Shown piece by piece: positions 2,101-61,405 of a DNA stretch of 64,000 nucleotides. The notes below the pieces were generated by a model. It was not told where the DNA came from. It ran no database searches and saw only the letters and a program-made list of their open reading frames with translations. The DNA is from Heptranchias perlo (Eukaryota). Where the stretch lies: assembly GCF_035084215.1 (NCBI RefSeq), contig NC_090346.1, positions 38,626,001 through 38,690,000 of the forward strand, read 5' to 3'. The stretch's first letter is position 1; every line of letters starts with the position of its first letter. Made by a program: the position numbers and the translations under genes.

Positions 2101-2399
2101 CCTGTTTACTGAAGGACAAGAGAACAGGGCACTGCCGGTATCCGCGGCAAAATCACTCCGCCCCACACCTGCTGTGTCCCGGTATCACGGGTCCCCGGCG
2201 CCTCGCTGCAACAGCCTGCATCGGATGATTCCCCTACTGGAAGAAAACGCAAAGGAACACACCTGCCATTAATGCGGTGACCGAGGATGGGGCCGCTTGT
2301 TATCGGTGAGATTCTACAGCAAATACAGATACGCGATTTAAGTTACTTAAAAACATTCATTTTCCCCCCCACACGAAACGTCCTAAAAATAATAACCCA

Positions 2400-3235: not shown

Positions 3236-4679
3236 CTTCCTCTGAGGGTTATTTCTCAGTTGCATTATTGAGTAGAAATTGAACATTTATCAAATACCCA
3301 ATATATTTTTAAGCAATGGTAAGTGAAACAGCTCTCCTGCCAGGGTAGTTTTATAGGGAACACTATACTGCATCTACCCAACTCAAATATGACATGCTAT
3401 GAATTAGAAGTTATTGAATTAACAGTGCCCTAGATATAAAGGCGGTTTTCTTTTTACATTCACACAAACTCACCAGAAAAAATTAAGTTGCATTGCCCAC
3501 CCTCCCATTAAAATGAGGAGCCTACTGCACCCATTAAATCATGGTTTTCAAAAACTTGGACACAGAAAAAGGAAATGATGGCTATTTGGTTGCACTGATA
3601 GTGAGTAGAAAACCCAAAGAATGCAAGCTGGGAGAAGAAAAAAATTGAAATGTAACTAAACCCAGTATGTAGAAGAAAATGGTATGTAGCAGTTCAGGTA
3701 TACTTACTGCCATCTGTGCCATCATGATGTCCTTGTCAAATCTAGGGGTTAGCTAGTTCTACTGTACAGGACGTAATTATAAGACAGCACTTAAGACAAC
3801 TACTCCAAGTACTGTACTTATAGTTTAATAAAATCATCCTTGAAGCATAGTATGCCATACCACTTCATGACAAACTAATTCTGAAAACAAGAAATTCTTA
3901 GATGGTGGAATTTACTGCTGAACATGTGCTAGCAAGGTTCCATGGGATCTAAAATATAGCTTGATTAAGTGTATACATTCTAGGTATTTTTGTACATGTG
4001 AAACGAGTCACACTTTAGAAATGCCAGGGTTATTTATAATGAACACAGAATCTGGAACAAGTTAGATTGTTTATTCTCACCTTAGCTTCCTAAATGTAAT
4101 CTTACATCTGTTGCATTATTTCAGATTCTTAAGTCAGCTTCCAAAATTAGCTCAATGTACTTCCAGAATTCTCCCCTGCCAAATCTTGTTATGGTAACTA
4201 GCAAGATTGTGTAAGACAGCTGCCCATGTGACTCAGTTTCTAATCCTCTTCCTTTCCCCCCCACCCACTCCCACTATGCAAGCACCTAGTCTTTCCTGAA
4301 CGATGCCTCCAAAAAATCTGAAACTTAGACCTAAATATATGAGTACATTTTCTAATTTATGATGCAATACTTTAATGTTATGCCAAGTTTTGAATTTCCT
4401 GTTCTGTTCCAATCCCTCATCTTCTCCAGGTATATTCCAGTGTCTGCCAGCTTTTCTCATGCCACAGTTCTACTTTGTACTCACTATTGGTTGCTGTGAT
4501 GTTATCCAGGCTGACCAGCGAGTATTTCCCCATTTAGAGTTTTTTGGCAGCTGATGTTTATCAATGACTTTAGCCATGCCTAACTGTACAATGATGTGGA
4601 AATGCCGGTGATGGACTGGGGTGGACAAATGTAAGGAATCTTACAACACCAGGTTATAGTCCAACAAATTTATTTTAAA

Positions 4680-4718
4680 ATCACAAGCTTTCGGAGATTA
4701 TCTCCTTCGTCAGATGAT
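4680..4718 (-). ncRNA. Minimal type I hammerhead ribozyme motif (mirror copy)
   Basis: Reverse complement of 4723-4761. Confidence 0.65.
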
Positions 4719-4722
4719 AGCA

Positions 4723-4761
4723 ATCATCTGACGAAGGAGATAATCTCCGAAAGCTTGTGAT
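4723..4761 (+). ncRNA. Minimal type I hammerhead ribozyme motif
   Basis: AUCAU-CUGACGA-A-GGAGA-UAA-UCUCC-GAAA-GC-UU-GUGAU: stem I, conserved core, stem II, palindromic AAGCUU in place of stem III. Confidence 0.7.
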
Positions 4762-5284
4762 TTTAAAATAAATTTGTTGGACTATAACCTGGTGTTGTAA
4801 GATTCCTTACATTTAACTGTACAATGAGGAAAGCTCTAGATTAAATCTGTTTGTCAGTCATCCCTTCACTGAAAAAATTAATGATAACAAAATACACAGA
4901 CTTTTCTGAACACATTAACAAAAAGCAACATTTCTGTTCATGCTCAGTTAGAGAAATCAATCATATACACTCCCTTGACCTTGTATGGGAGACATGTAAT
5001 CAGAACTGATCTGGCAACAAGTTGAACACATGTGGAAGTCCCATGTTCATAAGGCACTAGAGAACAAACCAGTCTCCAGCCATTTTGATGTTGAAAAGGG
5101 AGTTATCAGTACTCATACAAAAAAAAATCAAATTGCACAAGGTGCACTTTGTTCAGTAAATAAGATTTAGATTCTTTAGCTCAAAATTGGAATCACCATG
5201 CGAGAAACCAAGATTTAAAAAAAATCTCAGCTTGGTGTTGCGCACTAAAATAAAATGCAGACACAATTATTAACCAGTTTCCTG

Positions 5285-8200
5285 AACAGTAAGAACAGCA
5301 TTTATTGACCAAGCTAGACTGAAACTTAATACATTTAAAAAAAACTGAAATGTATCCACTACTTTCAAATACTCATTTGACAAATTGTATACAATTTTGT
5401 ACATAACAAAATAGTTTTGTTATGGATCCATAAAAATAGCCAATTTCTGCAATATTGATCTTAAAATGAAATACCATAAGCTATATAAAAATGCAATGAC
5501 AGGATATTGTGTAGGTTTGATGCAAATTAAATCCAGGCTGCAAAGAGCAAGAAAAAGGGGTACCATAATTTCACAAAAATACTACAGTAGTTTGTGTTCA
5601 CCTATAGGAACAAATGTTCTTTATACGATACAGGTTATATCTGTAGCCATTTACTTAAGACCTTTGCAGAAGGCTTGCCAGTGATAGCTTTACAAATTAA
5701 CTGGTATTTTTCTTGAGGGTGAAACTCTGTAGATCTGTATGCGAGTAATCTGGATCCCAATCCTACCCAATAGATGTTGAATGATTATTAATGGGTGAAC
5801 ATGGACGGCATTACTGTATCTGGGGTGACATTTACCTGTGGAGTGTATTTCCAGGTAGGTTTTAACATTTAAAAAAAAAACAATTGTAGGGGGTGCAGGT
5901 TATTTTTGTGAAACTATAGCACTAAATATGCACCATTCTCTATCACAGATATAGGTCACTCTGTGCATTACAAGGCATTGGTTTAATAACTCAAGTAATC
6001 AACCCTTTGATGCCAAGTGGAAGCACAATAATGGTTTCGTGCAAGATGAAAAAAATTATTCAGGAATCATTAATTACATTACAATTAAATAAATTCTCGT
6101 TCCAAAAGTTAAGTTACAACACATAGAAATAAGATGTGAATGGCTATTAGTGTTTGTAAGCCTACATTTTGATATGTCCTGAAATCAGGTTCTTTAGTTT
6201 CTGAAACACCAAATACAGGAATGACTATAAAGTCGCATTAGAATTTACAAAAAAAAGTGGTTCTATTCACAATTATCTTTAATCCATCAGTGATGTACAG
6301 TAGTCTCATGACCCTCGGCATTCTGCAATAAAATGTTCAGCTTGAACGAAAGAGCAGGAACAGCCTTCCAGATGGTGAACTGTGCCATCATCCCTTTTTT
6401 AAAAAAACTGGAGGTGCCATACTGATCTTCTCACTGGACAAGCAAGCTGAAGACATCTCTGCAGTTTATATATTTGGTTGGAGTGATTAGCAGCATCCAT
6501 GAAAACTCAAACCCACAATTATTGAGGTAAACATACTCTTTCACATCCACCACCATCTGCCCAACTTTTGTGTACAACAGTTATCTCGAGGGTTTCCAAG
6601 TTTGGTAAAAAGTGATAGAAGTCTGAGCCTTGGGTGGAGACTAGTCCTGAAAACAGGCTATTTGAATATTTTATTTAAATATTCTACTTGTGAATAGAGC
6701 CACAACAAAGCTATCAAATGGGTTCAATTCTCATTGTATATAAGGGCAGACTCTTACTTCAGAGCATGCAAGATACAGAGGTCACACAAAGGCAAAAGTT
6801 ATTCTTGTTTGATGGCAACTGATATTTTTGTAAATGGTCTCATGGGTAGGACGAGCAGACCGTAGTAATATAGGCACAGCCTCAATGAGCTGCTGACAAT
6901 CAGGGGTGTGCATACATTTTAGATGATGGACTTCTTTTCTAACTATAGTGTCCCTTGTTCCAGAAATCCAAGGTTCAATCCCAATCAAATTTGGCCATTC
7001 TACAAACACATTAAAAGCTGCTTAATGGAATTTGACCCATCTTTAGGTCCAATAGATTAGACATGGTCATGTTGAACACTTGCCCATCATGCTTTGGTGT
7101 AGCCAAAAGTGATCACATGCCTTACAAAGTAAAGTGACCCAAGATTACATTGCACACCCACTCCATGCAACAATAAGGTGTCGTTAACATAAAAGCAATT
7201 AAAAGTAACTGGTGTCACACCCAATTTACATTCCCAAGTAGCATCTACATCCGTATATAATCAGTACAAAGACCCACAAGGATTATGGACCTAAAACGCT
7301 ATTGATAGGTTTGCATAATATTTATTTTTAATTAAGTTTATGGCCAAGAAAAAAAAAATTGCTTTTAAACCAAAAAAGGTAAATACATACAAGATTTTAA
7401 AAAAAACCTATAACTTTAGGTTGAATCCAAAATTGCAAAATGGTTTAATGTACAGGATGGGGTTTATTAAAAATGCTGAGCAAGCTATGCACAGAAAAAG
7501 GAATTTACTCGGAAACCTCTCCAGCATATACTGCTGTTTTAATACTGCAATATTCTTATAAAAGGTCCTTAAACATTGGAGTCAAGAAAAAAAAACCTGA
7601 GGTCAACCTGATCACAAAAATCATTAAAAACCTTGTGGAGTACTACACAGAGGCAACCGATAACAATGCAGCAAAATATATTTTCCTTTTGGAAAAAGTA
7701 TTCATAAGTCGCAAAGATTATGTACAGGTTTTTAACACCCAAAACAAAACCCCTCACATACAAGATAAATGTTAGTAACAACTAGACTGAGTCTGGTTTA
7801 GAAGCCGTGCAGACTTTCTTCCAATGGCATTTTGTGTTTTTTCCACTGCTTGCCTGAGCAAATCCCTTTCCCTTGAGTACAAACCACATGGAAACATTAT
7901 GTAGGACACCAGTACAGTAAATGTTTCATTTTGTACAGAACAGCAATACCAGACATTCTGATATATATATATATATATACAACCCACATTGGTATCACCA
8001 AGTTAACCAGAGTACATATTCACTAAAGTATCACCACAGTACAGGCCTGATGCTTTTTCTATGTAGCCCACTTTTCTCCCCAGCACTCAAGATATTGCTT
8101 CATGGATCTTGTACTTTGTCACTTATGACTTGGTGATACAATAATGTCGATCTGATGACTGGCAGTACCAGCACTGGGCTTGTATCAGCAGTTACCACAT

Positions 8201-8556
8201 CAGGAGGTAATTAACCAATTTGGTAAAAACAATTGTAAAGGGTTAACACTAGCATACACCTTTTGTCAACAACCCATCTTTCAATAAGTAAACTTCTTAC
8301 ACCATCCTAACAAAATTACAACAAAAAAAAAGCAGCAGATGGTCGGCACATGCTCATTTCACAGTCTCAGAGGTGCCACTTGTCAGTGCATTAATGAGAT
8401 TTGGCTGGGTATGGACCATCAATCATCCTCAGTCACCAGAGGAAAAAATTTACAATGGCCAGTGTGGCAGATTAGAGCAGTTACTGATAATGGAAACATA
8501 AAAACCAAAACAAATGGTCCAGAATTTAAAAAGAAACAATTAAAACATTGTAGCGG
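5285..8556 (-). other. GLYR1: Probable long 3' UTR of GLYR1 with alternative poly(A) signals
   Basis: No recognisable repeats for ~3.3 kb after the stop; AATAAA on - at 7463-7468, 7321-7326 and 5301-5306, the last followed by U-rich sequence. Confidence 0.5.
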
Positions 8557-8631
8557 TCACTGGTTGCAGGCCAGGTATACTGCAGACATATCATTTTCAG
8601 ACTGGTCCAAGGCCTTCGCTTTCTTAAACAC
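8557..8631 (-). CDS. GLYR1: GLYR1 exon 16 (last)
   Basis: TAG|[24 protein letters not shown]. Confidence 0.93.
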   Translation of the reverse strand: MFKKAKALDQSENDMSAVYLACNQ

Positions 8632-11600
8632 CTACAGGGAAAATAGCAAATCAAAAAAGAATGATATTAATGTTAAAACTGAACAGAATAGTATCCCATA
8701 AATTGCCACAACAAAATTCACAAATCACTGCAAAACTGTCTGGGAAAGGTGCTAAGAGACCATGGGGAAAATCAAATGAGGAATAACCCTGCATTGCTTT
8801 CGAACATCCTACTAGTCAGTTACAAAACTGCACAATGCCGAGGTACGAAAGCCAATAGATCCAATTCGTTTTTAAATGCATTTGAGTTGACACAAAATGG
8901 ACCAACATAAGCAGGATCCAAAATTCACGTTAGCTCCCATTAATTTTTAATGATGTAGAAATAGTTATGTGGCTGTTTATTGTAGGTTTCAGAACTATAG
9001 CAAAGGAAAACCTGATTAAATAAACCTAGTTTATGCAGCACCTTGCCTCATATCTGTAATACCGATGTTCAACATCATAGCAAGGACACTAATGTGGTAA
9101 TACCCTGTCTGAACATCAGCATTCTCAGATACCTGCAGATGGGTAGAAAGGTAAAATAATTTTAAAACACACCTTTCCCTGAAACAGAATCTATATTAAC
9201 AAATTCTAATATCTCCAACAGAATTAAATAATTTCAGAAGCCCCGATTTTAAACTCGGGGCAGGCGGGGGCCAAGGCAGACGGCAAACCGTCCTGATCAC
9301 GGCAGCTTGAGGCCTGGGAGATTTTAACTCCTGGGTCTCCATCTGCATGCTCCCTGTCAGTTTCCCGGCCAAAGGAACGGTCCCCAGCATTTAGATAAGT
9401 CATGGGGAGGCGGTGGGGTGGGCTTGTAACTTGGGAGGATGCCCAGATCAGGGGAAGCATAAACTTTCCTGCTCCTGCTGGCCTCCAGAAAAGTCAAAAA
9501 AGCAAAAAGGCTCAGCTTTTTGGGCCTTTTTTGGCCCCGACCCCTCTTCCCGCTAGGTGAACCCGGAAGGAAAACCACAACAGCTTCCCTGCTCAGGCCC
9601 AGAGTGGGAATAGCACTCGGGCAACAATGACATAATCGGAGCCTGATCTGCATATTTAAAGAAGGACCCCATCTGTTTCTGACAGGTTCCCTCTCGCTCA
9701 GCAGAAAAGTTCAAATCAGAGCCTGCAGGAACAGTGTGGGATGTCGGTGGGCGAGTCCCACGGCAATTTTAACTGCCCGCCCAGTTTCTGGTGCTTAGGA
9801 TTAAATTATCATCCATAAAGATACTTTGGAGAATTGAAGCAGATCAAATAATTTAAATTGAGATATGGCACTTGTCCCAAGTACAAGTACCTTGTGTTCT
9901 GTAGCAGCCTCTCTAAAGGTTAACTTACACTTAAGAAGCAAAATGGCGCTAATTACAGAGCTATATATCAAGCAGATTCCCTTGAGTAAAAGTTACCATT
10001 AAAAGGTACTTCATAGTGCAGTATCCCTACTGAAAAACTTGGGAAAGCTAACAGGGACATAGTTCTAAACCAAATTATTTCCTAATTACTGATAAAACTC
10101 ATCAAGAAACAAAATCTGACATGCCATCTCAAATATTACAGCATTTCACAATGTAATGATTGCAGTGGACAATACAGCAATCTACCTTATCATTTTCAAT
10201 TTTATTATCTTTTCACCTCTAATGCAGTCTCTGCTATGCTCAGTGTATCTCTCACCAAACAGAAAATTTAAGGTAAAACTAAATGGTATTGTGGATACAA
10301 TGCAGTGCAGGACCACCAGCTGTGACAAAATATGATACAACAGGGGTAGATTTGTACTTGCAATCCTTCAAATACCAAATTATCAATAATTCATAGGGAA
10401 AAGAATGAAGAAAGCCTTGCGGAGACATTTTACAGATACACAAACAGCACAATAATTGAGCTTGGAATATGGACTCAGAATTGACATGTATCAACCATGC
10501 CTCCAAATCCTGCAACAATAATCCATAAATATGATTGATTAAAACACAAACATTGACTACATAAGACAAACATACAAAGATAAACTACTGATCTAATGGT
10601 TACAGAAAGAAATAAGGGTTCATTTTGATATATAACACACTAGTTTATCATGCAGCTTAGAAACAGGTCAATTATACACATTTGGCTTAAAATTTGAAAG
10701 AAACAGCAGAATACAAAGACCAACAGGGACAGAGAGTACACAGCAGCAGAGTAGAAGATGTGAGAAATTTTGAGCCAGGTAGATTAATATAAATAGAAAA
10801 CAGTTTCCCCTATTTTCTTGAGGCTGTGATTAGAGATAACACTAAGCAACAGTCTGTCCCAGTGCCAAATGACATTATATGCAGAGTTTTCATCATTCCG
10901 TTCATATAATGGATTTTCACCCAACCAGTTTTCCTGTTCTGGAGAGCATATCCCTTCCAGTCTACACATTATTCCCCCCACCAATCAGGGAACCAGTCCC
11001 CGGTCCTCTGGGAAAGCTGTTCTTTATTGAGTGCCACTCTGAACAGTTCAACAGATCAGGACCTCAGTGTGTGGAAGTCACAGATATCCCATGTTGTCCC
11101 ACTCTGATACAGGGAGCTAGTCCAACATTTTTTATTTTAAAATTTGATTTGCAAACAAACATCAGGGGCATAACATGTCCAGAACTTACTTCATTGGCCG
11201 CAGCAGCCATTGGAGTTGAATGATTGACAGAATCACCCATAGCAATGGCTAACCTGAGGTCCTTTTGTATGTGTTTCAACAAGAAGTCAGGCTTGAAGTT
11301 TCCCTGTAAAATACCTGATAATGAGAGAATCACTAGTGGATACAGTTAGTGGTTTTGGAGGTAATTTATTGTTACATGTAATAAATGTTAGAACATTGTT
11401 GTTATGGGTGTAAAAAGATGGCTTTAAATTTTTTTTGAAATTACAGCTTTAAGATGAGAAAGATTTAAAAATAAAGTTAGAATTATCTGTAAATATACAG
11501 GCCAGTTTTGAGTAGAAGTAACTGATTTAACACTGGTTGTGTTCATGTGAGCAACTAACCCACAGCTTCCTCTCCGTTCTTACAGCCAACTAAAAAGCTG

Positions 11601-23600: not shown

Positions 23601-26600
23601 ACACTGCCATTGGTTGCTGTACTGTCAGCTGCCTGGATGGATGTTGACTCTGCTTCCTGTGATTTAAAACAAAATTAACTCATTAACTTTCACAGGTGAG
23701 GTTTCAACTATAAACCCTTACATATCAGGATTAATTTTGGATGGGGACACACACACACTTTTAGCATTTGCTCATATTGAGCATGCTGTGCAAAATGTTT
23801 CATCACTGCTACTTATACAATTTTACACCCATTTACAGATTCAAAAACTGGTATGAATACTAGACCAGGAACTGTGGCATTTACCTTTCTGTGAAGCCAC
23901 CATCTCATGTATACAAAATGCAGTTCAAATGTTTTGTATTGCCTGCTATTACACTACAGCATGAACTGGATTTGTGATAAATGTGCATACATTAGTTTCA
24001 GTGCCAAAAGGATTATTCCAGTTTGAACCTAGTGCTTAGTTTCCCACTTAAAAAAAATGAACGATTAGTTCTTCTATAAAAGCACTTTGTGGTAATAATC
24101 CATTCTCTTGCAATGCAGCAGAATTGCTAGTCAAATTATTAAAGCAGGTTGCAGACCTAGTTTATTCCAAGAATCAATGAAAAGTCAAAAAAAATCTATT
24201 GTGTATGCAACAAGGTCTCTACTACAGTTACACTATATATTTTTTGTTATTTGTAATTTTTTTGAAAAAAGTGTGTCTGCTCCATTTCCTAGAGGTGCAA
24301 GCAGGACACACGATTCCCAGGCCTCTGTCATGGCCATTTTGAGTTGAGTAGGAAGCACAAAGATTGCCCTTGAAGTGCTTGAATTCTGCTGGATGCATCC
24401 CCATAAAATAGCACAAGTGAGAAGAATTTACCATAGGAATAGACATTTTGCTTTCTTCATGCATCTTAGTATAGTTGAAAGACTCTATTAGGAGGTCATA
24501 CATTAGTGCACAAGGTGCAGTCTAAAAAAATACATTGTAGTCTGAAAGGACTTAAGTTTTCCCCATCTATACAATGAGACAAACTTGTAGGACAGTGAGG
24601 GTATGCTTCAGTTTTTGTAAAGCAAGTGGATATTGGGACTATACAAACACCATTATTGGAAGTATTGAAGACTAAGGAAATTACTCAAACTTAAGGTAGA
24701 CAAATCATCAGGATCTAACGGTTTACATCAGAGGAGCCTGAGAGGTACAGAGGAAGTAACAGAGAACACAAGAAATAGGAGCAGGGGTAGGCCATACGGC
24801 CCCTCGAGCCTGCTCCGCCGTTCAATAAGATCACGGCTGATCATTGACCTCAACTCCACTTTCCCGCCTGATCCCCATATCCCTTGATTCCCTCAGTGTC
24901 CAAAAATCTATCCATCTCAGTCTTGAATATACTCAATGCCTGAGCATCCACAGCCCTCTGGGGTAGAGAATTCCAAAGATTCACAACCCTGAGTGAAGAA
25001 ATTCCTCCTCATCACAGTCTTCAATGGCCGACCCCTTATCCTGAGATATTGTCCCCTAGTTGTAGACTCTCCAGCCAGGGGAAGCAGCCTCTCAACATCT
25101 ATCCTGTCAAGCCCCATAAGAATTTTATACGTTTCAATGTGATCACATCTCATTCTTCTAAACTCCAGAGTATAGGCCCATTCTATTCAATCTCTCCTCA
25201 AAAGGACAACCCTCTCATCGAATGCCTTTTGAAAATCCAAAAATACTACATCCACTGGTTCTGCTTTATCTACTGCTAGTTACAACCTCAAAACTCTAAT
25301 AGATTTGTCAAACACTATTTCCCTTTCATAAAACCATACTGACTCTGTCTAATCATATTATGATTTTCTAAGTGCCCCATTACCACGTCCTTAATAATGG
25401 ACTCCAGCATTTTTCTAACTACTGATGCCAGGCTAACTGACCTGTAGTTCCCTGTTTTCTCTCACCCTCCTTTCTTGAATAGCAGTGTTACATTTGCTAC
25501 CTTCCAAACCACAAGGACCATTCTAGAGTCTAAGGATTTTTTTTAAAAAGATCACAACCAATGCAACCACTATCTCTGCAGTCACCTCTTTTAGAATCCT
25601 AGGATGTAGGTCATCAGGTCCAGGGTATTTCACTGCTTTTAGTCCCATTAATTTCTCCAATACTTTTTCTTTACTAATATTAATTACTTTAAGTTCCTCA
25701 CTCTCATTAGACCCACTATTTCTGGTACGTTTTTAGAGTGAAGACAGATACAAAATATTTGTTTAACATCTCTGCCATTTCCTTATTCCCAATTATAATT
25801 TCTCCTGTCTCTGCCTCTAAGGGATCCACGTATACTTTCACTACTCTCTTCCTTTTTATATACTTGTAGAAGCTCCTACAATATGTTTTTCTACTTCTTG
25901 CTAGTTTCTCTGACAGGATAGATGCTGAGAGGTTGTTTCCCCTGGCTGGAGAGTCTACAACTAGGGGACAGTGTCTCAGGATAAGGGGTCAGCCATTGAA
26001 GACTGAGATGAGGAGGAATTTCTTCACTCAGAGGGTTGTGAATCTTTGGAATTCTCTACCCCAGAGGGCTGTGGATGCTCAGGCATCGAGTATATTCAAG
26101 ACTGAGATGGATAGATTTTTGGACACTGAGGGAATCAAGGGATATGGGGATCAGACGGGAAAGTGGAGTTGAGGTCGAAGATCAGCTATGATCTTATTGA
26201 AGGGCGGAACAGGCTCAAGGGGCTGTATGGCCTATCCCTGCTCCTATTTCTTATTCTATTTTCTCCCTCTATCAACTTTTTGATCATCCTTTGCTGGTTT
26301 CTAAAACCCTCCCAATCCTCAGGCTTACTACAATTCTTGGCAACATTATAAAACTCTTCTTTTAATCTAATACTATCCTTAACTTCTTTAGTTAGCCACG
26401 GATGGATCACTTTTCCCATGGAGTTTTTATTCCTCAACGGAATCATTCGTTGAGAATTATGAAATATTTCTTTAACTATTCGCCAATGCATATCTACCAT
26501 CATATCCTTTAGTCTAATTTCCCGATCAACCATAGCCAACTCGCCCCTCATACCTATGTAATTGGCTATAAGACTCTAGTTTCGGACTTAAGTACGTAAC

Positions 26601-44029: not shown

Positions 44030-44242
44030 ATGGCCGAACCGCGACGAGTGTCCCTGACTACGCTTCCCGTCTCGGCTCCTCTCCTAAAGAAAAATAAAGA
44101 GGAGGAGGACGAAGAGGAAGAGGTGGTGGTGGTGGAGGGGCAAATATCGGCCGTCACATCGCGCCACACGCTGGCTCTCTTTGAGTCGAGCGAGAAGAGT
44201 TGCCCCGAGTTTTATTACCCCGAGTTAATGCGAGTGCGGAAG
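44030..44242 (+). CDS. UBN1: UBN1 coding exon 1 (NHRD)
   Basis: [13 protein letters not shown]...[25 protein letters not shown]|GTAAGC. Confidence 0.92.
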
Positions 44243-47200
44243 GTAAGCAAGCCTTGCCGCTTCTTGACATTCGAGGCAGCAGAGTTGGGGTGAAAAGTAA
44301 CGGAGATGGGCTCAACCTGGAGACACCCCCCCCCCCCCCAGCCCAGCAACAGCTAATATGGAGACAATATATACATATATTTTAAGAAGTCAGTTACTTA
44401 GAGGTGGAAATTCTCTCTCGAGTTCTTCGATCGGTGCATAAAATTAGCTCATCTTTTTCTACTTAGTTGTTACGAGTTTACATCGACATGTTAATCCTGC
44501 TCAGTCAGTGTTCTCCTTTAGAGAGAGAGACAGATGGGAATAAACAGACCGATCTGGCTGACATGTGACCTAAATGGGAAGCCATAATTCAGTAGTCGTA
44601 CCCGTTTTGAGTTTTTTGAGCTCCCATTAATTCTTGATTTTGAGACTTGAAGCTGTATTTCAAACAGTGATCGGCATATAGAGCACTATTTAAATAGATT
44701 AGATAATAACTTTAATATTCTGCATTAACTATGCGTTATTTAAAATGCTGGGATCTCCTCGATCTTTGGTAGGCCCAATATCATAAAACTACATCAAAAG
44801 CAAAATACTGCGGATGCTGGAAATCTGAAATAAAACCAGAAAATGTTGGAGAAGCTCAGCAAGTGAGGCAGTATCTGTGGAGAAAGAATAGAGTTAACGT
44901 TTCAGGTCGAAGACCTTTCCTCAGACGACCTTTTTTCGTCAGTTCTGACGAAAGGTGTTCGACCTGAAACGTTAACTCTGTTCTTTCTCCATTTGCCTCA
45001 CTTGCTGAGCTTCTCCAGCATTTTCTGGTTTTATATCCTAAAACTACATTGTTTTAGTATTGCTTACATACTGATTTGAGTTATCATGAACAATTAAAAA
45101 ATCTGCAGTTCGATCTTGAATATAATATTTCTAAATTATTATCAAGCAACTATTGCTAAGTAATATGGGAAAACGAGGTTACAGCTTTAAGATATCCGTC
45201 CATACTTTTTTTAAAACTTAACGTACATATGCAATAGGAAAAAGTTTGACAGCCGGCAACTGATTAGTACTATCCATTTAGCCCTAGCTATATCAACAAA
45301 AATTTCTATTATTCAATTATTAGCTACAATTATAGAATAGCTTTAGCTGATTTTCCACTCAATTCTGAGCAGGCAAATGGATGCTCCCTATAACACCACG
45401 GTTTGGATGTTCTGAAATTCTTTCTGACGGTTGTTTTGTTAATTATCATTTTTAAATTTTACCATAACTGTTGGTGAAATGCATCCATTCAAAACAATAT
45501 GGATGTCAAATCCTTTTGCTCAACATAAAATACAGTTGGAATGGTAGGGTCTGGAAATTTCAATGCTGTCTTGTGTTCAAATCCTGTCTAAGTTGATGAG
45601 ATGAATCTGGCTGTAGGAATTACAAAATGGAATAAGTTTTGCCTACCTGAAACTAGTTTTCAGTGTGCTGTATAACCAAAGTATCAGAGGGAACAAAAGA
45701 TATCTGGTGTTGGAAATAGAGATGTCACACTGAGACAAGGGGCATGCTTCTGCGACGACATTTACACAATTTTGCTTTACAACGACAGTAAAATTGTAGT
45801 GGAAATCTAGAATCAAGCTTGATCTGACAGAAGCAAAGCAAAGCGAGACCTTCCTCTCGACCCAATCAGAGACTTCATCTTGGGAGTCTTGCTAAGCTTC
45901 ACACCAATGCTATAATTGTAATGTACGCGCAGCTTGAGGTTGGTGCCCACCCATCTTATTTGACTCAAGTAGAGTGAACTTCACTGTGCAAGTGACATGC
46001 TGTAGATGGCGAAGCAATGCAAACAATAGTATAGACTAATGCTATTTGCAGTGCAAAGTATTCAACCCTAAATATAACATTTTGCCCATAAAAAGATGTT
46101 AGAAAGTTTACTAGAAGTTGATATTAACATATAAAGGCATAGAATTGGTTGCAATGGTTGGGGGTGAAGAAATGTTGGTGCCTCCTCATTTTTGGTTCTT
46201 GCCCTGAATACTCTGGTTACAAGTCACACTAGTTAGAATCACACAGGTATTGAGAAAATAAGTGTAAATGCAAGATTTCCAAAATGATGAAGACATTTCT
46301 GCCCAAAGAGTGTAGCTGGGTGTATCACAATTCAAAAAAAGGAAAATCTAATAGCCTTTATCAGCTGCATAAACATAATATTTAAACAGTTTTTTTTCCT
46401 TCCAAAGTTACTCATACGCAATTTTTACAGAGTAAAAATAGAAACATTCATGACTCATCTTGGTATTATTTGGTGCAAGGCATAATGTCAAATATTTTAG
46501 AAATCAATATTCAGTATCTTGTCAATATAGTTGGGAGTATAATCAATAGTACAAGTTTTCATTCCTTCTATTAGGATTTCCTCCTTTTGTTAAATCTAAC
46601 TTCATTTAAGGGGAAGCTAGATAAACACTTGAGGGAGAAAGAAATAGTAGGATATGTTGATAGGATTAGATGAAGAAGGATGGGAGGAGGCTCGTGTGGA
46701 GCATAAACACTGGCATGGACCTGTTGAGCCGAATGGCCTGTTTCTATGCCGTACATTCTTTATAATTTTCTTCACCCGTCTGTAGTACTGCAACCCCCCG
46801 TTGAATGTTTAGGTTTAGATTAGCTTCTGTATTTTGTGATAAAAGGCCTTTTTTTAACATGTAACTTAAAAAGCGTATGTGATGCATGTGATTTGTAAGC
46901 AATATTTCACTCCTTAGTATCACTGCCACCAACTGTTGGCATTTGCAATCGAAGATGCTGATTAATTGCTGTTTTTTGCTGACAATCTGTGATTCTGCAT
47001 ATGTTGTGGATCTATAAATCTCAAAAAAACCTTGTCAAGCTAAAAGTTAAAAAATAAGTCAGGTTTACCATTATTTCAGGCAACTCTTCCAAGTACTGCA
47101 ATGCTTATTTCCTCTTTCATTGCAAAAAGTAAACTTTCTAAGGTACGTCACAATAAATCATGACTGCAGTGGTGACCCCAATTAGCTTTGCCTCACCTGA

Positions 47201-50200
47201 GTTACCACCATGAAATCGCATTTATAATTCACAGAACAAACTGTCTGTAATCACCAAGCATTGTTCTGTGAATTATAAATGCGATTTCATTTCGAGGATT
47301 TCATTTCCAACAACGTTCACCTGATGAAGGAGGAAGCCTCCGAAAGCTTGTGAATTTAAAATAAAATTGCTGGACTATAACTTGGTGTTGTAAAATTGTT
47401 TACAATTCATAATTTTAAACATTCCTAGCATGTTACACTATAATCTGCATTGTTCTAATGAAAAAAGACCCTTTCAACTTCCACAGCACTGAGCCTACTT
47501 CTATTCAGAGTATAATTAATGTTATTTTTTGAGCAAAGTACATCACCTCACACTTACTGACATTGAATTCCATCTGCCAGTTTTTAGACCATTTCCCCAA
47601 CCATTCAACCCTTTGCAGTTTCCTTTGGTCTTCTAAAGAATTAACTACACCTCCTATTTTGGTATCATCTGTAAATTTTGACACCACTCCCCATAGGCTG
47701 TTATCCAAATCATTGATATACACAGTGATCAGAAATGGCCCCAGAACTGAACCATCAGGAACATCACTACCAACTTCCAACCAGTCTGAAAAACTGCTCT
47801 TAACTCCTAGTCTCGATTTTCTCCCTTCTAACCAATTTTTAATCCGGTTTGCTATCCGCCCTCTAATTCCATGCCCATTAATCTTCTCTAGTAATGTCCT
47901 ATGTGGTACCCTGTCAAAGGCTTTTGTAAAGTCCATATATACTACATCCACTGCATTTCCCCCATCTATCATGTCTGTTACCTCCTCAAAGAATTCTGCG
48001 AGGTTTGTCAAGAACAATTGTCTATTTTGAAATCTGTGCTGGCTACTTCTAACTATTTTTTCTTTCTCTAGATATGAGGAGCTTTCATCCAACTTTTCTT
48101 GCCACAGATGTTAAACTAACTGGCTGTAATTACCCGGATTAGCTCTGTCTTTTCAAAAATGGGTGCTACATTGGACACGCTCCAGTCTTCCGTCACACAT
48201 CCACACTCAAAAGAATCCTGAAATATAATCTCATGGGCCTCGGCAGTTTCCTTCCTCAGCTCCTTTAGGATATATCACGTCAAGCCCTGGCGCTTTATCT
48301 TCTCTTAGCTTAACTAACTTATCTAAAATTTTTCTTCTATCCATCACAATATCGTTCATCTCGCTCTCAACCACTTCATGATTCACCTCCTCTTCTATAT
48401 CCTTCTGTTTAGTGAAGACTGATGCAAAGTACTTATTAAATACCTCTGCTACCTTTTGATCATCCTCTTCAGATTAATAATCCTCTCCTCTCAGGGGTCT
48501 CGCCTCGCTTTTAACAATTCTCGTTTACTGATATATTTGAAGGCCTTATTGAATGCACTGAATTGTGTCTGGTGGACTTGGTGGCAGTCACTAATACAGA
48601 TACATTCTGCAGGTGATTCACTGTAAAAACAAAACCAAATTAACGCTCATTGCTGGGGGAAAATATTGTACAATTGGCGTACTTTGACTTATTTGAATTA
48701 GTGGTAACTCCAATTAATTCTTAACAGGTAGCTAGCTGGAAGATCCTTGAATGCAACTCCAAAAGTGTCTACCTTAGATTGTATTTTTGTATTAAGTCTC
48801 TACCTGATATACAGAACAAAAACATTTTGATGGGGAATAATGTAGTGAAGTTGTCGGCCTTGAAATTAAATCATTTTTGTGGGTGCAGTAGAATGAAATG
48901 CTGCCAGGCAAAATTGTTTTAATTGAAGGGCTGACATCTGAAAGCACTTGTTCATTCACAGAATACAAATCTATTTTCATTTTGGAGATGTATTTGACAG
49001 AAAAATAATGGCAAACGGGCTTATGAATAGATGGGAGGCGAAAGGGGTTGAACCTATTGATCCCAGACTCATCAATATCATCCCAGCATACATTGAAGTA
49101 AGTGGCTAGTATTGCACATTCAGCTGAGTTGGCGCAGTTGACATAGAATTCCTGTTGCAAGGTCATTTACTGTAGTACCAGATCCAAACGTGTTAACAGC
49201 AGTTGTCTCATGCATAAGGTCACTTGGTGGATCGTCCTTCGAACTATTGCCAATATCAAAACATTTCCATCCTAGCTTCCCTACTGCAGATAAGTAACTG
49301 GATCTTATTAAAGTGCACATTTAATTCCTGTCAATTAATTTACAAGCATTTGTTAATAAGTTGGTGCAGTTGAACTCTGTGATCACTTTGTTTGGTGGAG
49401 ATGCAACTTACAACTTACCTGCAGTGTTAAATACTTTACTTATTTTTGTAGTCAAAAGTCCTGGTACATTTTTGATTTTCTGATTAAAAATAGGGGTTAT
49501 GTGGAGAATACAAAGTAGGTGTTTAGACATTTGATGCTGTATGGCCTCACGTAATTTTGCTTAGGATCAGTGTTAAATGTTGAAGTGAACATTTGAGATA
49601 TTCAAAAATAGCCGAAATTAATTTGAAGGGGAACTTTTTTTCCGCCTAGGTGTGTGGTTCCCTTCTATTCTTGGCTGTGCCCTTGCGGACCAAAGGAGTC
49701 AAAAATGTGATCTGTGTTTTATTTAATAAAAGTTCAGTTTTCCATCATTTGCAGTGTAACACTATGACAACATGAGCTCAAGTAATTCTTTTGTTTTTTT
49801 AATGTCAAATGTTGCAGTGATTTGAGCAGTGGTGTTTTGTGCTTCAGCATGTTGTGCCATATCTTTTTCCTCATGATCCCCTACATGATGAGTGACTGAT
49901 TTCACCTACATTGTTAGCAGAGGTACCAAGCAGAATGTTAGATAAACTCTGCTAACCTGGGAAATGCTGCTCACACAAGCAGAAGAACATCTAGCAAAAA
50001 TGGATTAATAGCTTTCCGTTTAGCCCCTTGTAGTCAAGAATCATTGAGTTTGCAGTGAGGGAAATTAGATGAAAATTTCATTATAAGCCAAGATTAGTTG
50101 TATCCTACAAAGGGTTTTTATCTCAGTTCTAAAGTTTGTGAATGTAAGTGTTCTTGTTTGGGAGAACAGGGCAGAATTTTGTATCTTTCTCAATGGTCGT

Positions 50201-53200
50201 GAGACATGTTTGTCCTTCTGTTACATGAGTAGTGGTATGAAGATGTTTGAAACCCCAGGGTTTCCTAAATGTGCTATGTGGATACAGTAATCTCAGAATT
50301 ATGACTTTGAAAGTGAAATTTTGCTCATGTTATTGCTTGATTTAGAGGATATTAATCTCTTTTTCTTTTTCTTGGTCGGTCCCCCCTCTGCCTGTCAGTC
50401 TGGACCCTACACTGATGCCCCGCCAGCCCAGTCATCCTGTTTGAAAAGTTCCCCCTGCAGTGTGCAAAGTTTTCAAAGCTAAATAGCACAATTTATGTTG
50501 AAGTTCTAGAATGGAAATTGTTTCCCATCAAAGTTAGACAAAACTGACTGGATGGCGCTAATTGCATTCTTTAGCAGTATTAACAACCTTAATACTTGGG
50601 TCTCTAACTGAGTAAAAAAGATGCCCGCTATAAATAGAAGCTTTCACAGCCCTGGAGAATGTGTTATAAAAATTAATGGCCTGTGACTCTATTCTAAGAC
50701 TGGTGATTGATATTCAAAACAAAACTGAATGAGCCTTATATAGTAACAGCCAACCTACAGGGACCTGAACAGTGGTAATGAATGTGGTTTAAAATAGTAT
50801 GGAGTTGCACTTTAGCCCTTTGATAATTATGCTAGTATTCGTGCACTAATCTAAAAATAAAGCAATCTTACAAATATTTAGTTTTAACTGGATGATCCCT
50901 GTGGTGTTGCTAATGGAGTGCAAAGTTGTAATGTTCATCCCATCTGCCATTGAAAACCTCATCCATGCCTTTGCCACCTCCAAGTTCTATCAGTCCTCTG
51001 CTCTCCTCCTATGTTCTACCCTCCATAAATTTCAGCTCATCCAAAACTCTGCTGCCTGTATGCTAACCACCAAGTCCTGTTCATCCATCACCCTTGTCCT
51101 TGCTGACCTACATTGGCTTCTTATCTGCCAATGTTTCAAATTTAAAATTCTCATCCCTGTGTTTAAATACTTTGATGGCCAAGTCCCTCTCATTTCTGTA
51201 ACTTCCTTCAGCTCTCTATTCCTCTGACACCGACCTCTTGTGCTTCTACCCTTTCCTTCACCCCACCGTTGGTGGTTATGTCTTCAGTTACCTAGACTCC
51301 ATGCTATGGAATTCTCTCCCAAACCCCTTTGCCTCTTCCCCTTGCTCTCCTGCTTTTGGCCACCCTTCCTAATCTCTCTTTCTCTGGCTTGGCAACCTTC
51401 TTTTACCTTATTCTTCTGTGATGCACTATGGGACAGTTTTCTACATTGAAGTTGCTGTGCCAGTGTTAGTTGTTAGCTGCTAACCTGGCCTGTCTCTTTA
51501 AGACCACTGATTAGGTAGCCTCTATGGAAAGGTGATCTAAATAAATCTTGAGATTAATTAGAGATTGTTGTTGAAAGTTTCTCTGGATGTCTGCTGCTTG
51601 GCTTCTCTCATTATCTCACCAGCCTACTCAGGTTATTTCAAGGTCAGAAAAAGCAGCAGGAAATAACTAGCTTTCTTTTGTATACTCTAATTGTTCAGTT
51701 ATGATTTGTTGGATGTTTAATATGAATTATAACATTGGAGAGTTATGAGTGTGCTGAAAACTTTTGTTAAAGTTGATAAAAGTGACGGGGTATAGGTGGA
51801 AGATGATGGGTATCTGTAAATGAATTACAAGACAGTAACCCAGTTGAGAGGCTCAGATGATGTCACGAATTGTCAAGAAGCTCCCTATTTCTGTTTGGCA
51901 TTTGAAATCTGACATTGCATTACTGCCTTGTATTCACATGCTGATATTTGTTATTATTCAGGCTATATTTAATGAATATTTTGAACTATGGTTTTTATGT
52001 AGGTGTTTCGTGCTGCCGTTTTTGTCAGTGAAAGTAATAATTGCTTGATGTAGAAGAAGAGGATATATAAATTTTATGATGTAGAATCCGGAATACCTAT
52101 TATTGTATTACTTGACAGGACCTGATTGTATTACCAAGTTTATGGGAAAGTTAATTATTGTGTGTGTGCGCGTGTGTGTGTGTATATTCTGGGAATATTG
52201 TCCGGCTCCGTACATTCGTGTGTTATATTTATTCGGTATTACAGATATATTTTTGAGCAGCAATCTGATACCTAAAAGTATGAGAGTTTTGGAAGCAACA
52301 TAAAGAATCAGTAATTAAAAGAGCTAAAATAATAAATGTATAAAATCTTCAGAAAAAGTGACTGAAATCTGAAAAAGGATGTGATTTGTGAACTGTTAAT
52401 AGCACTTGATACATAGGATATTAAAAATGCAAATACTTAAAAACAGGGAACAAGTTGATATTACCTTCTGTTTGATTTAAGATATATATTTTGTATTATA
52501 AATTTAATCTATGTACATAAATATCTGGTTGTTTTGACTTCCGGAGGGAAAGATTGGCAGCATGAAAGGCTTGAACCGAATACTGGTCCATTAGATGGAG
52601 GCTTGTAAATAAAGCCATATTGATCTCAACTCTTAACACTGACTTAGCTCATTGCGTTCCACAGTTAAGAACATTTTACAGTTGTACTCCCTTTTCACAC
52701 AAAGGTCTATATTGGATCAGTGACTTTTGCAAGCCGCTGAACTGGTCTTCTGACCTTTAATATTGAACCTTAAAAACATTTTGGAAGTAGTCCCAGTTTG
52801 GGTAGTTGTTTCTCCTGTAAGTGATGAACTGGCATATCTGCACAGTGCATATATTCCATGGCTCCTCTAGTTCCTGGCATTTGGTTCTTGAGACACCATA
52901 CAGGAATAGGTAAGCAGTGATTCATTTGGTACCTGACTACTGTATATTCCTGCAAACTTTTAATGTTGCTATACTGTAGTACCATCTTGTTTATATAGAG
53001 AAGTATGAAATATTTAATTTTTAATGTACTTATAACCATTCCTGAATTTTCTTTTGTTGAGTTTCTATATTTTTGAATGTAACTTGTTTCTTCTTATGAT
53101 AACTTTCACAAATGTATCTATCTACATTTCATTCACCAGTGTTATGCAGTTTCAGAGGACTAGATCAGCACAGGTAGACTTAAAATAGAAGGGAAGAAAA

Positions 53201-56200
53201 AAATAAACTTTGTTCTCTTTTCTCCCTCATTTTTTTATTGTATATAGAATCTTACCTTATACTGCCAGGTACAGGAGAGTTATTTTTCTTTCTGCATAGG
53301 GTAGTGCTGTAACTGGATTCCCACCTTATCCCCTCTTCCTACAAAATAAACAAATCTGATTCTCCAAGGAAGCTAGTGCATGCATAGCAGAAAAAGAGTT
53401 ACCTTTTTTCTTAATATACTGTGCAGATATTTGATACCCCAAGCTCCTGATTTTTTTTTAAACAGCTGTTCAATTGTACGTTTTCATAACATTAATTGCA
53501 AAGTTATAAACTTTGCCTGTAGTTCTTGCACATTGTGCTACCCTGCTGTTAGAAATTAATGTTCTCAGAACAAAATTAAGAGTATTGCAGACTGATTGAA
53601 AATGATTATATTCTTGATCATGTATTTTGCATACTCATAATTTGGGGCATCATTTGATGAAGGTGGAAATTCTGTGAATCTTGGAGTCTGCAATTCTTGA
53701 TTTTTAGTGTATGTGTATTGTGCATCTGCTGTTGGTCATAATCTAGTCTATCTTTATTTTGTCTGGACAGTTTGGTGCATTATACTAGGATTTTTATGCC
53801 AGGCTTATGAATGTAATGGTGTAACGGTGGAGTGAAAATCTGAACATAGAGCCACCGAATCCAAACAGACTCATCTCTGTGTTGCTTCCATGGAAACCTA
53901 CCCAGGTGGTCTGTTGACAAAGCAATGTTACAGTTTCTGTGTGACATAGAGAGCCAGCACAATGCCTTATAATCCTGTTTCCAACTGCCTTTTGTACAAT
54001 CGACTGCCATAAATCTGACACCTTGGGTTGGTTGGCAGTAAGCTGGTAGGTAGGTATAGTATGTAGCAATACTATTATCCCAGTTAAAGGTGCGTGCTCC
54101 ACCTTGCTTTGAAACTTGTAGCACCTCGATGGATGCACTGGTGTGTACATGACACACAATGCAGTCCATGTACAAAGTGCTCCCAAGTTTCAGAGTAAGC
54201 CCATGCAGTCATCCGACGTGAATAACATGATGCTGTTTGTTGCATCTCCCTTTTACTGGCAGGTTAGGCCCAACAATGGCAAAATTATACTGCCCTCCAC
54301 TCTATCACAGACCTTCCCTTTTGTTCTCCCGCCCCCCCCCCCCCCACCCCTTTCATTGGCTCGGTACTGGCTTAAAAACTTTAACTCTTTAACATCTTCC
54401 AGTTCTGACAAAAGGTCTTCCACCTGAAACGTTAACTCTATTTCTTGCTCCACAGATGCTGCCTCACTTGCTGAGCATTTCCAGCATTTTCTGTTTTTAT
54501 TTGATTTCCAGCATCCGCAGCAAAATGTTACTGTTTGGTTTTCTACATGCACCTCCTTGTGGCAGGTTCTAGAGCAGCATTAGACACGGAACAGCATACT
54601 TGTCCACTCACTAAGGAATGGTGTGAAGTATGGGGGAACCTGAGGAGAACAGAAATTGAAAAATTCCTTATCCTATAAGGTAACCTGACAACTCTTATTT
54701 TTCTGTTCTGTACATGGTGTTGATTTTGATTTTTTTTATTTGTAGAAAGATGCAGCTAAACATTTTGATGATCCTTTTAATGATGACAGAAGAGAAGAAC
54801 AGAAAATTGAGACTCTGGCTAAGAAATTTGAAGAAAAATATGTGAGTCATGCTTATTCATTGTTTCATTAGTAAAGCTCACATCTCTTTTCAATCTATAT
54901 TAGCAAACAGATGAGGTAACCAGTTAATACAAAAGGTTATTTTGCTGCTCTTCTATTTTGTAAAATAAGTTCCATCCAGGTACTTTTACTGTAATTTTGA
55001 TAATTTGTGCTCTAAACTACCTGATGCAAAACTTTATAAAAATAATGGTTAAATCTGCAATGCTGCACAACTAGACCTGTTTGCAAATATTGGGCATGTT
55101 GCTATCTAAAAATTACATATCAAATTGGATTGGTTTCAGAATCTCTCTTCACCCCAACAGACACTTCAGTGGAAGTGGAGATTCATAATAAAGATCAAGT
55201 TCTCATCAGATTATAAGGTGCTTGCATAGGCTTCTTCCCTGCACGGACTGTATTTCATTTGAAGCAGTGGATAATGGTGAACTCAGTGATTGTGGAAAAT
55301 ACAATGGACAAAATTAAATGGATTTATACCACAATGGGGAACGAATATTTATTTTTCATTTGCGGTGGATTATTTTTGAAACTGGTATGTTTGACTTTCA
55401 AGGTCCCATGATGGACACACATGCATATTCCTTGTCAACAGCCTTTTAAACTGTCTTCCCTCCTACCAACACTATGGCAGGTGCAGTTATTTAATCTTTA
55501 CTACATCCACTTTTTGAAGATTCATGTTACTATAATAAAAAGACATATGTTTCTTCCACTTTGCAATGTGCACATCGGTCAGCCCGCCACTGCTCTGAAT
55601 TTATCAACTGCCACTTGACTGCACCAAAAGTACAGCAACTCCTTTTCTTGGAGCATGCAACAGCTGCCCATCGTGGTAAGCTCCCACAGAGTTCAGTGCC
55701 TACTGTAATAAATATTTCAAGAAAAACTCTGAAACTTGTCTTGTTTGAAATGCAAATTTGGGTCAATAACCTGTTGACAAACACTGGTTGTGGTGCACTG
55801 CAAGTGTAACAAGAATGTCAGTTAGTAGCAGAAAACACATTTACTCTTTAATCACTCTCTCAAAACAACTAACCAAAAGAGCAGTAAGTCCCAATAATTA
55901 ATTGTTATTATGAAGTTAACTGTTAGAAATTCAACTCCTCCCAAATAAAAGTGGCATAAACATAGCAGCAGCAAATTTTATTAAGGGCAGAAATCAATAT
56001 ATTTAACCATGAACTTCATCTGTTGCTGGAGGCAATTCAGTTCCAAGGTTAATTCTAAACTTGTTGGACCCTTCTGCCAGTTGTTTGTTCTCGAGTTGTT
56101 CTCATATCTTCAGATTCTTCTCTTGGAGAATGGCATGAAGTAGTGGAAAGATTCGCAGGCTGATTAACAAGCTGTGATGTGAATGCTCCTTCCATGGCCA

Positions 56201-61364: not shown

Positions 61365-61405
<41 letters not shown>

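What the first reader, a model, noticed from the sequence alone, without database searches (positions are those of the whole stretch)
4595..54520. Dispersed family of minimal hammerhead-ribozyme motifs with covarying stems in Penelope-like insertions
Seen: six motifs at four loci (4723-4761 +, 4680-4718 -, 44941-44977 +, 44892-44925 - with damaged stem I, 47316-47354 +, 54401-54437 +) share stemI-CUGANGA-A-stemII-GAAA-NN-UU-stemI'. Stem sequences differ but pairing is kept: stem I AUCAU/GUGAU, UUCAC/GUGAA, AGUU/AACU; stem II GGAGA/UCUCC, GGAGG/CCUCC, AGGU/ACCU. Stem III is replaced by a palindrome (AAGCUU or AACGUU), and all copies have one extra A after the CUGANGA box. Established: Penelope-like elements carry minimal type I hammerheads in their pLTRs, proposed to cleave as dimers through a palindromic loop 3. 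Inference: two distinct PLE families with a variant-core ribozyme have been active in this genome. The phenomenon is known in general; these families and the extra-A variant may be undescribed.
Basis: partly seen in the sequence, partly recalled or inferred. Interest (0 to 1): 0.8.

Follow-up and report, generated by a model that had tools for sequence, protein, structure and literature searches.

The report
Penelope retrotransposon minimal hammerhead ribozymes
The motifs are real small self-cutting-RNA (hammerhead) sequences at the tail ends of broken copies of two Penelope-like jumping genes, a combination already described, so the kind is ordinary; only the tendency of short copies to stop just upstream of the ribozyme may be new.

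Summary
They are minimal type I hammerheads in pLTR remnants of two Penelope-like elements. Family A matches, at 99-100%, the pLTR of a genomic copy with an intact 891-aa RT + GIY-YIG ORF; family B lies about 300 nt downstream of a decayed ORF 30% identical to it. Target-site duplications, inverted arms and the two-ended 'tail' fit published PLE anatomy. Stems covary, and amplified variants never damage core or stems. The 'extra A' is not a variant: it is the published consensus (CUGANGAH, Cervera and De la Pena 2014). About 105,000 such cores occur genome-wide. This scan found the same kind before in other genomes. One unexplained pattern: 5' ends of short family A copies pile up 0-21 nt upstream of the core, not at the cleavage site; a cap-G test of the transcript-start explanation was negative. 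New member of a known kind; cleavage untested.

The parts
4581..4594 (+). left target-site duplication (14 bp, last 4 nt shared with the element's tail end)
   Evidence: identical 14-mer at 4581-4594 and 4814-4827
4591..4718 (-). family A1 inverted pLTR arm with the ~36-nt tail, ending at the element's ATG
   Evidence: 99.2% to the L031 unit; 3' end +94 nt from the cleavage site
4680..4718 (-). minimal hammerhead, family A1, intact; predicted cut 3' of 4685
4721..4814 (+). family A1 direct pLTR arm without tail
   Evidence: 100% to the L031 unit; 3' end +58 nt; 92-bp perfect inverted repeat with the left arm
4723..4761 (+). minimal hammerhead, family A1, intact; predicted cut after 4756
4814..4827 (+). 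right target-site duplication
44784..44794 (+). left target-site duplication of the family B inverted insertion (11 bp; partner 45039-45049)
44795..44925 (-). family B inverted pLTR arm with tail
   Evidence: 92% to L119
44891..44929 (-). minimal hammerhead, family B, core intact, 5' strand of stem I lost at the inversion junction
44940..45037 (+). family B direct pLTR arm without tail; hammerhead 44940-44978 with intact core, predicted cut after 44973; sense strand of intron 1 of the ubinuclein gene
   Evidence: 88% to L119
47210..47239 (-). 30-nt inverted fragment of the family A2 pLTR (rest of the left arm missing; no TSD found)
47234..47407 (+). family A2 5'-truncated pLTR; hammerhead 47316-47354 intact, predicted cut after 47349; sense strand of the same intron
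   Evidence: 98.3% to L297 and L069
54290..54520 (+). family B solo 5'-truncated pLTR; hammerhead 54400-54438 with G8-to-A core change (predicted dead); possible 7-bp TSD at 54279-54285 / 54520-54526
   Evidence: 88-89% to L101 and L119
5300..43579 (-). host gene GLYR1/N-PAC (context only; ends approximate); the 4.6-4.8 kb insertion lies about 0.5 kb beyond a likely poly(A) signal at 5301
   Evidence: one exon matches PDB 2uyy N-PAC at E 9.5e-24; exons and signal; gene ends inferred
44030..64000 (+). host ubinuclein gene (context only); first coding exon 44030-44242, next exon near 54748, so three of the four insertions are in its first intron
   Evidence: two exons match Pfam HUN; exon borders read; UBN1 rather than UBN2 is recalled synteny

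Best explanation
The four loci are dead, 5'-truncated insertions of two endonuclease-containing Penelope-like retrotransposons, and the motifs are the minimal type I hammerheads these elements carry in their pLTR, about 92 nt upstream of the ATG in family A. SHOWN here: the link to RT + GIY-YIG ORFs, the tandem and inverted structure, TSDs of 11-14 bp, two classes of 3' end about 35 nt apart, covariation, and purifying selection on core and stems among amplified variants. FROM THE LITERATURE: the element is transcribed from a pLTR promoter; the protein nicks both DNA strands and starts reverse transcription at two internal sites (the 'tail'); the ribozyme lacks its own helix III and cleaves weakly as a dimer through the palindrome, or with the element's protein as helper. 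INFERRED: priming from both nicks gives the two head-to-head arms, one from each start site; the template mostly has an uncleaved ribozyme, because nearly all copies run through the cleavage site; the ribozyme matters in the master elements, whereas the window's copies are passengers (no ORF; the inverted pairs would fold into long hairpins that bury the motifs; the two intact sense-strand intronic copies have different palindromes and cannot pair into helix III with each other).
For: Window arms 99-100% identical to the pLTR of L031, which holds a tandem unit (period 3041) with an intact 891-aa ORF: Pfam RVT_1 E 1.5e-10, GIY-YIG E 4e-4 below cut-off, DKG, YIDD, CX4CxxC linker and two Cys between the GIY and YIG halves. 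Family B hammerhead 296-338 nt downstream of a family B ORF hit in 14 of 19 loci chosen by protein alone; that ORF is 30% identical to family A over 497 aa. 3' ends bimodal: about +51..+60 and +87..+101 nt from the cut site in A, +66..+73 (15 of 21) and +103..+104 (4 of 21) in B. Covariation on 21 distinct motifs: 96.7% of cells paired, 9 of 10 pairs with two-sided change, score 0.653 against 0.251 shuffled and at most 0.142 when slid. Among 15 family A variants seen 3 or more times (211 of 302 instances), 0 of 14 distinct substitutions hit the core, the palindrome or break the 8 scored stem pairs; among 44 singletons, 32 of 66 changes do (Fisher p 0.0005). Genome-wide exact counts: A1 5,347, A2 29,600, B 1,283, generic core with the same spacing 105,665 against 1,134 for the reversed control.
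Against: No cleavage was measured. Most two-sided changes come from one comparison (family A against B) and related sequences inflate the shuffle test; two-sided changes inside family A are few (fifth stem II pair, one L188-type variant). One amplified variant has an A-C mismatch at the fifth stem II pair. Monomer folds are weak (z -2.1 to +0.5). No intact family B ORF was found among the 128 best hits (longest open frame 691 aa). GIY-YIG scores are below Pfam's cut-off. Published dimers cleave poorly and 8 of 9 Xenopus dimers did not cleave.
Confidence: 0.92

Rival explanations
1. The fold is conserved as a protein-binding or dimerisation signal for the retrotransposition complex rather than, or as well as, as a catalyst.
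For: Genomic copies almost never break at the cut site (160 genome-wide, beside 94,058 downstream anchors). In the anole element, catalytic mutants inserted normally in vitro and no reads began or ended at the cut site (PMC11167929).
Against: All catalytic-core letters, not only the stems, are invariant in amplified variants of both families; the anole ribozyme did cleave with protein.
Confidence: 0.2
2. The short copies are a separate non-autonomous family (SINE- or retrozyme-like) with its own transcript.
For: Short hammerhead+tail copies outnumber long ones in A2 (34 of 50 end within 21 nt of the core).
Against: Their 5' ends are spread over about 20 nt rather than fixed, they share subfamily-specific sequence with full pLTRs, and many are arms of inverted insertions; no tandem arrays of short units in the window.
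Confidence: 0.1
3. One or more window copies has been co-opted to cut or regulate the ubinuclein pre-mRNA.
For: Two intact cores lie on the sense strand of its first intron (44940, 47316), one about 0.7 kb from exon 1.
Against: At one core per about 31 kb genome-wide, intronic copies are expected; the 44940 copy is 88% diverged, is part of a hairpin, and its palindrome mismatches that of 47316; the 54400 copy has lost G8.
Confidence: 0.03
4. Chance matches in AT-rich DNA.
For: Rfam finds no hammerhead.
Against: 0 of 60 shuffles; 93-fold genome-wide excess over the control pattern; fixed position in PLE pLTRs.
Confidence: 0.01

Closest known systems
Minimal hammerheads (min-HHR) of metazoan Penelope-like elements (Cervera and De la Pena 2014, PMC4209133)
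   Same: Type I, CUGANGAH core with an unpaired nt at 9/10.1, stem I of 4-5 bp, no helix III, palindromic 15.2-16.2, U-rich 5' and AU-rich 3' flanks, mostly in truncated copies, often paired on opposite strands.
   Different: No cartilaginous fish in their Fig. S3 or supplement text; about 105,000 cores here against about 4,000 (coelacanth) and 9,000 (Xenopus) there, by different search methods; stem II is short (5 bp); family B has A-U at 10.1-11.1 instead of the usual G-C (also seen in a few of their rows).
Neptune-type EN+ PLEs (Craig et al. 2021, PMC8557442)
   Same: Single ORF, RT followed by C-terminal GIY-YIG with CCHH-type motif, CX2-5CxxC linker, partial tandems, inverted 5'-truncated copy, 30-40-bp tail.
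   Different: Clade placed by motif only, no tree; Nematis shares the linker motif. Family B's linker is decayed in the copy examined.
Poseidon element of Anolis (Frangieh et al. 2024, PMC11167929)
   Same: Two reverse-transcription start sites that define the tail; hammerhead just upstream; genomic copies run through the cut site.
   Different: There the ORF starts inside the ribozyme and the RT start sites are in the ORF; here ribozyme and both ends lie in the 5' UTR, the long end falling on the ATG in family A.
Non-LTR retrozymes (PMC7229834 listing only; bioRxiv 10.64898/2026.07.22.740005)
   Same: Type I hammerhead in pLTR-related repeats.
   Different: Retrozymes are tandem arrays of non-coding units; the window's copies are dispersed, TSD-flanked truncations of coding elements.

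Membership tests
PLE minimal hammerhead (min-HHR) | Core CUGANGA ... GAAA ... UH | tested here: met
   5 of 6 window copies exact; 54405 copy G8-to-A
PLE minimal hammerhead (min-HHR) | One unpaired nt between positions 9 and 10.1 | tested here: met
   6 of 6 have A; published consensus H
PLE minimal hammerhead (min-HHR) | Stems I and II supported by covariation | tested here: met
   mostly between families
PLE minimal hammerhead (min-HHR) | Palindromic 15.2-16.2 replacing helix III | tested here: met
   GC in A, CG in B; 6-bp self-duplex of -4.3 and -3.5 kcal/mol
PLE minimal hammerhead (min-HHR) | G10.1-C11.1 pair (highly conserved, not universal) | tested here: inconclusive
   G-C in family A, A-U in family B; exceptions exist in the published alignment
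PLE minimal hammerhead (min-HHR) | Self-cleavage as dimer or with protein | not testable with these tools
   needs in vitro assay
EN+ Penelope-like element | Single ORF with RT and C-terminal GIY-YIG | tested here: met
   family A intact 891 aa; family B decayed homolog
EN+ Penelope-like element | pLTRs from partial tandems, inverted 5'-truncated copy, TSD | tested here: met
   L031 tandem plus inverted arm; TSDs of 14 and 11 bp in the window, about 11-14 bp in L031-L034
EN+ Penelope-like element | 30-40-bp tail on one arm | tested here: met
Neptune clade | CX2-5CxxC linker between RT and EN (absent in Penelope/Poseidon) | tested here: met
   residues 753-761 of P0001 (criterion)
Neptune clade | RT phylogeny with reference elements | not tested
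   no Repbase or Dfam references at hand; no PDB relative
Rfam hammerhead families | Covariance-model hit | tested here: not met
Non-LTR retrozyme | Tandem array of non-coding hammerhead units | tested here: not met
   dispersed copies in the window; not surveyed genome-wide

The most novel reading that the evidence does not exclude
Short family A copies are run-off ('strong-stop'-like) cDNAs: reverse transcription starts at the tail sites of the 5' pLTR copy and ends at the RNA's own 5' end, a transcription start 10-17 nt upstream of an uncleaved hammerhead (or at a protein-bound boundary there, as telomerase RT stops at a template boundary). The tens of thousands of hammerhead+tail copies would then be a genomic map of the PLE transcript start and would explain why min-HHRs are so abundant as single motifs in animal genomes. 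Basis: 31 of 83 arms (24 separate insertions) picked by a downstream anchor end 1-21 nt upstream of the core, against 0 between -20 and -10 and 4 between -100 and -50 from the cut site; junction-verified excess in A1 (13 against 7, p 4e-5) and A2 (25 against 4, p 3e-13) but not in B (4 against 7, p 0.21); the mode shifts from about -10 (A1) to about -17 (A2), onto the A of an initiator-like TTTCA motif. Against: no cap-derived G (p 0.59), the peak is broad (424 against 270 three nt inside), and stalling after unwinding the ribozyme or microhomology joining explains it as well.
Probability: 0.3. Interest if true: 0.55.

Novelty: new member of a known kind. Interest (0 to 1): 0.25.

Why it matters
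The ribozyme kind and its extra nucleotide are in print, so the finding as posed is ordinary. What this genome adds is scale and a clean test system: about 105,000 cores, a very young family with an intact ORF and thousands of identical ribozyme copies, and many subfamilies that show selection on the catalytic core. That makes the open question of whether and when PLE hammerheads cleave in vivo approachable, and the pile-up of 5' ends just upstream of the core is a concrete clue to the unresolved PLE integration mechanism.

Tried and rejected
1) Rfam: no hammerhead hit. 2) Genomic trace of in vivo cleavage: copies starting exactly at the cut site number 160 against 56 three nt upstream; by eye about 30 of the 100 listed rows are one-letter insertion variants or stem I microhomology junctions; the +3 control (1,875) was swamped by insertion subfamilies and dropped. 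In the sample, 4 of 83 arms end within 3 nt of the site. A small excess is not excluded; a major class is. 3) Cap-G signature at the initiator-like A: among the first 100 of 424 and of 270 listed matches, after dropping by eye rows flanked by the inverted arm or likely point mutants (59 and 69 rows), G:A was 13:15 against 10:16, p 0.59; not supported. 4) First boundary mapping crossed palindromic junctions and was replaced by mapping against ORF-linked pLTRs; 20 of 103 arms in a host satellite were left out, and one or two nested short copies were classed as long. 5) First family A variant count had a faulty pattern; redone. 6) Expression: no RNA holder listed; laying four contig-only runs cannot show starts, ends or levels, so it is not used. 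7) No TSD for the 47.2-47.4 kb copy. 8) No solved structure related to the ORF. 9) Lunse et al. 2017 (PMC5785218) is not held; it may describe further variants. Dfam and Repbase could not be searched, so these families may already be catalogued. Supplements of the 2026 bioRxiv preprint (one chondrichthyan genome surveyed) and file 1 of PMC4209133 were not seen.
Full report
Observation. A descriptor scan found five with an exact core and a sixth with one mismatch; 60 dinucleotide shuffles gave none at no mismatch and at most one at one mismatch. All have one extra A after CUGANGA. Corrections: the copy at 54405 has G8 changed to A, and the 44896 (-) copy has lost the 5' strand of stem I at an inversion junction. 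Rfam has no matching family.

Setting. The window lies in a 3.25-Gb genome, probably a shark or relative; that label is recalled from the repeats and echoed by earlier notes on other genomes, and was not tested. It holds a GLYR1/N-PAC gene on the minus strand head to head with a ubinuclein gene. Three insertions are in the first ubinuclein intron; the fourth lies about 0.5 kb past a likely GLYR1 poly(A) signal.

Family A. The 73-nt query from 4723 returned 40 scored candidates of 781, all identical, many as opposite-strand pairs up to 3.5 kb apart. Locus L031 holds an inverted arm, a 5'-truncated unit and a full unit (period 3041) with an intact 891-aa ORF starting about 92 nt after the predicted cut site. 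It has an RT domain, a C-terminal GIY-YIG (E 4e-4, below cut-off), two cysteines between the GIY and YIG halves, and a CX4CxxC linker, which by the criteria in PMC8557442 (passages) points to Neptune or Nematis rather than Poseidon; only Neptune and Poseidon were found in vertebrates in the 2026 preprint. The window's arms at 4591-4718 (-) and 4721-4814 (+) match this pLTR at 99-100% and are flanked by a 14-bp duplication. The 47.3-kb copy is a sister subfamily (A2) whose linked ORF fragments are mostly 92-98% identical to A1.

Family B. ORF remnants lay beside 6 of the 30 first family B loci. A protein search gave 128 scored hits of 45,330 candidates, 72-83% identical to the query apart from itself, none longer than 691 open residues. 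Of 19 loci picked this way, 14 have the family B hammerhead 296-338 nt downstream on the same strand. The ORF is 30% identical to family A over 497 aa. So two distinct PLE families, B older and decayed. The window's inverted B insertion has an 11-bp duplication.

Ends. The 3' ends fall in two classes about 35 nt apart in both families, inverted insertions usually carrying one of each. This is the 'tail' that PMC11167929 (parts 1-2 of 4 read) traced to two internal start sites of reverse transcription.

Structure and selection. On 21 distinct motifs, 96.7% of cells pair, 9 of 10 pairs show two-sided changes, and the covariation score is 0.653 against 0.251 in shuffles and at most 0.142 when partners are slid. 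Most of that signal is one contrast, A against B. A more independent test: in 302 family A instances, the 15 variants seen three or more times carry 14 distinct substitutions, none in the core or palindrome and none breaking the eight scored pairs, while 32 of 66 changes in 44 singletons do (p 0.0005; singletons further than 3 changes from a shared variant were left out). Masters are therefore under selection for an intact hammerhead; inserted copies decay.

Abundance. Exact 29-nt patterns occur 5,347 (A1), 29,600 (A2) and 1,283 (B) times, controls 0. The generic core with the same spacing occurs 105,665 times against 1,134 for the reversed control, one per 31 kb, so five in 64 kb (two of them paired arms) is unremarkable.

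Comparison with what is known. PMC4209133 (parts 1-3 of 4, supplement file 2 part 2 and a term search) describes this motif in PLE pLTRs, names the nucleotide between 9 and 10.1 and the palindromic 15.2-16.2 as consistent features, gives the consensus CUGANGAH, notes opposite-strand pairs and single truncated copies, and reports no monomer and low dimer cleavage. The extra A is thus the norm. A review (PMC6765202, passages) repeats the dimer model and cites Lunse et al., which I could not read. The 2026 preprint (parts 1-3 of 5) covers one chondrichthyan genome. Penelope expansion in whale shark introns is noted in 10.1101/443036 (passages). PMC6155905 (passages) adds nothing on sharks. Searches for shark PLE hammerheads found no dedicated paper, but Dfam and Repbase were not available. 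Earlier notes of this scan report the same kind in at least two other genomes.

Mechanism. Most likely the element is transcribed from its pLTR promoter (shown for Drosophila Penelope in PMC2377424, passages and Discussion; an initiator-like motif in rotifer pLTRs in PMC3846280, passages). The ribozyme completes helix III by pairing its 6-nt palindrome with a second copy (-4.3 and -3.5 kcal/mol) or with protein help, and processes element RNA at some stage. Integration uses mostly uncleaved RNA: only 160 copies start exactly at the cut site (the pattern catches about half of such breaks), beside 94,058 downstream anchors. The count three nt upstream is 56, so a small excess is possible. The window's copies are most likely inert: no ORF, long hairpins in the inverted pairs, and mismatched palindromes between the two intact intronic sense copies (inference from the sequence).

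Unexplained pattern. Among 83 family A arms chosen by an anchor downstream of the ribozyme (the first 100 listed of 94,058 plus 3 neighbours, 20 in a host satellite dropped), 31 (24 insertions) have their 5' end 1-21 nt upstream of the core, none between -20 and -10 and four between -100 and -50 from the cut site. In core-anchored samples the junction-verified excess holds for A1 (13 against 7 in the next 78 nt, of 53 arms) and A2 (25 against 4, of 50) but not B (4 against 7, of 21); paired arms are not independent. Both inverted insertions in the window have their junction there. The mode sits near -10 in A1 and -17 in A2, at the A of an initiator-like motif (consensus recalled), which suggests run-off at a transcription start. 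The cap-G test was negative and the peak is broad, so stalling after the ribozyme or microhomology joining remain equal rivals. I found no description of this pattern in searches or in the scan's notes.

Verdict. Real, correctly spotted, and a new member of a kind described in 2014. Interest 0.25; the 5'-end pile-up is the one lead worth following.

Noticed in passing
window 43579 (-) and 44030 (+): GLYR1/N-PAC and a ubinuclein gene start head to head about 450 nt apart in a CpG island (43.2-44.5 kb); the family B inverted insertion sits 0.55 kb into the first ubinuclein intron.
   Followed up: partly
window 4591-4594; L031 1116-1120; loci: The long 3' end of family A falls on or within a few nt of the element's ATG, and often shares 2-4 nt with the target-site duplication, suggesting microhomology at priming.
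   Followed up: partly
L182-L329: Family A has many subfamilies whose pLTR upstream of the ribozyme is highly variable while the ribozyme and tail are nearly fixed.
   Followed up: partly
G000:C1:3.93-4.02 Mb (L243-L248): Family A arms inserted in, and amplified with, a host tandem repeat rich in AG; several nested copies.
   Followed up: no
rows: About one in six copies that begin at the cut site join the inverted arm through the 5-nt self-complementarity of stem I.
   Followed up: no
window 24770-25109 and 25911-26252: A 340-nt inverted repeat at 94-95% identity, about 0.8-1 kb apart, made of a different (LINE/SINE-like) repeat.
   Followed up: no
window 1780-1910 and 56810-57240: Two GC-rich short-unit tandem repeats.
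   Followed up: no
window 56145-56212 (-): Weak Rfam match to the CPEB3 ribozyme (18 bits, E 4.3), most likely chance.
   Followed up: no
window about 2080-2180 (-): A third gene appears to start here, possibly ROGDI (recalled motif and synteny only).
   Followed up: no
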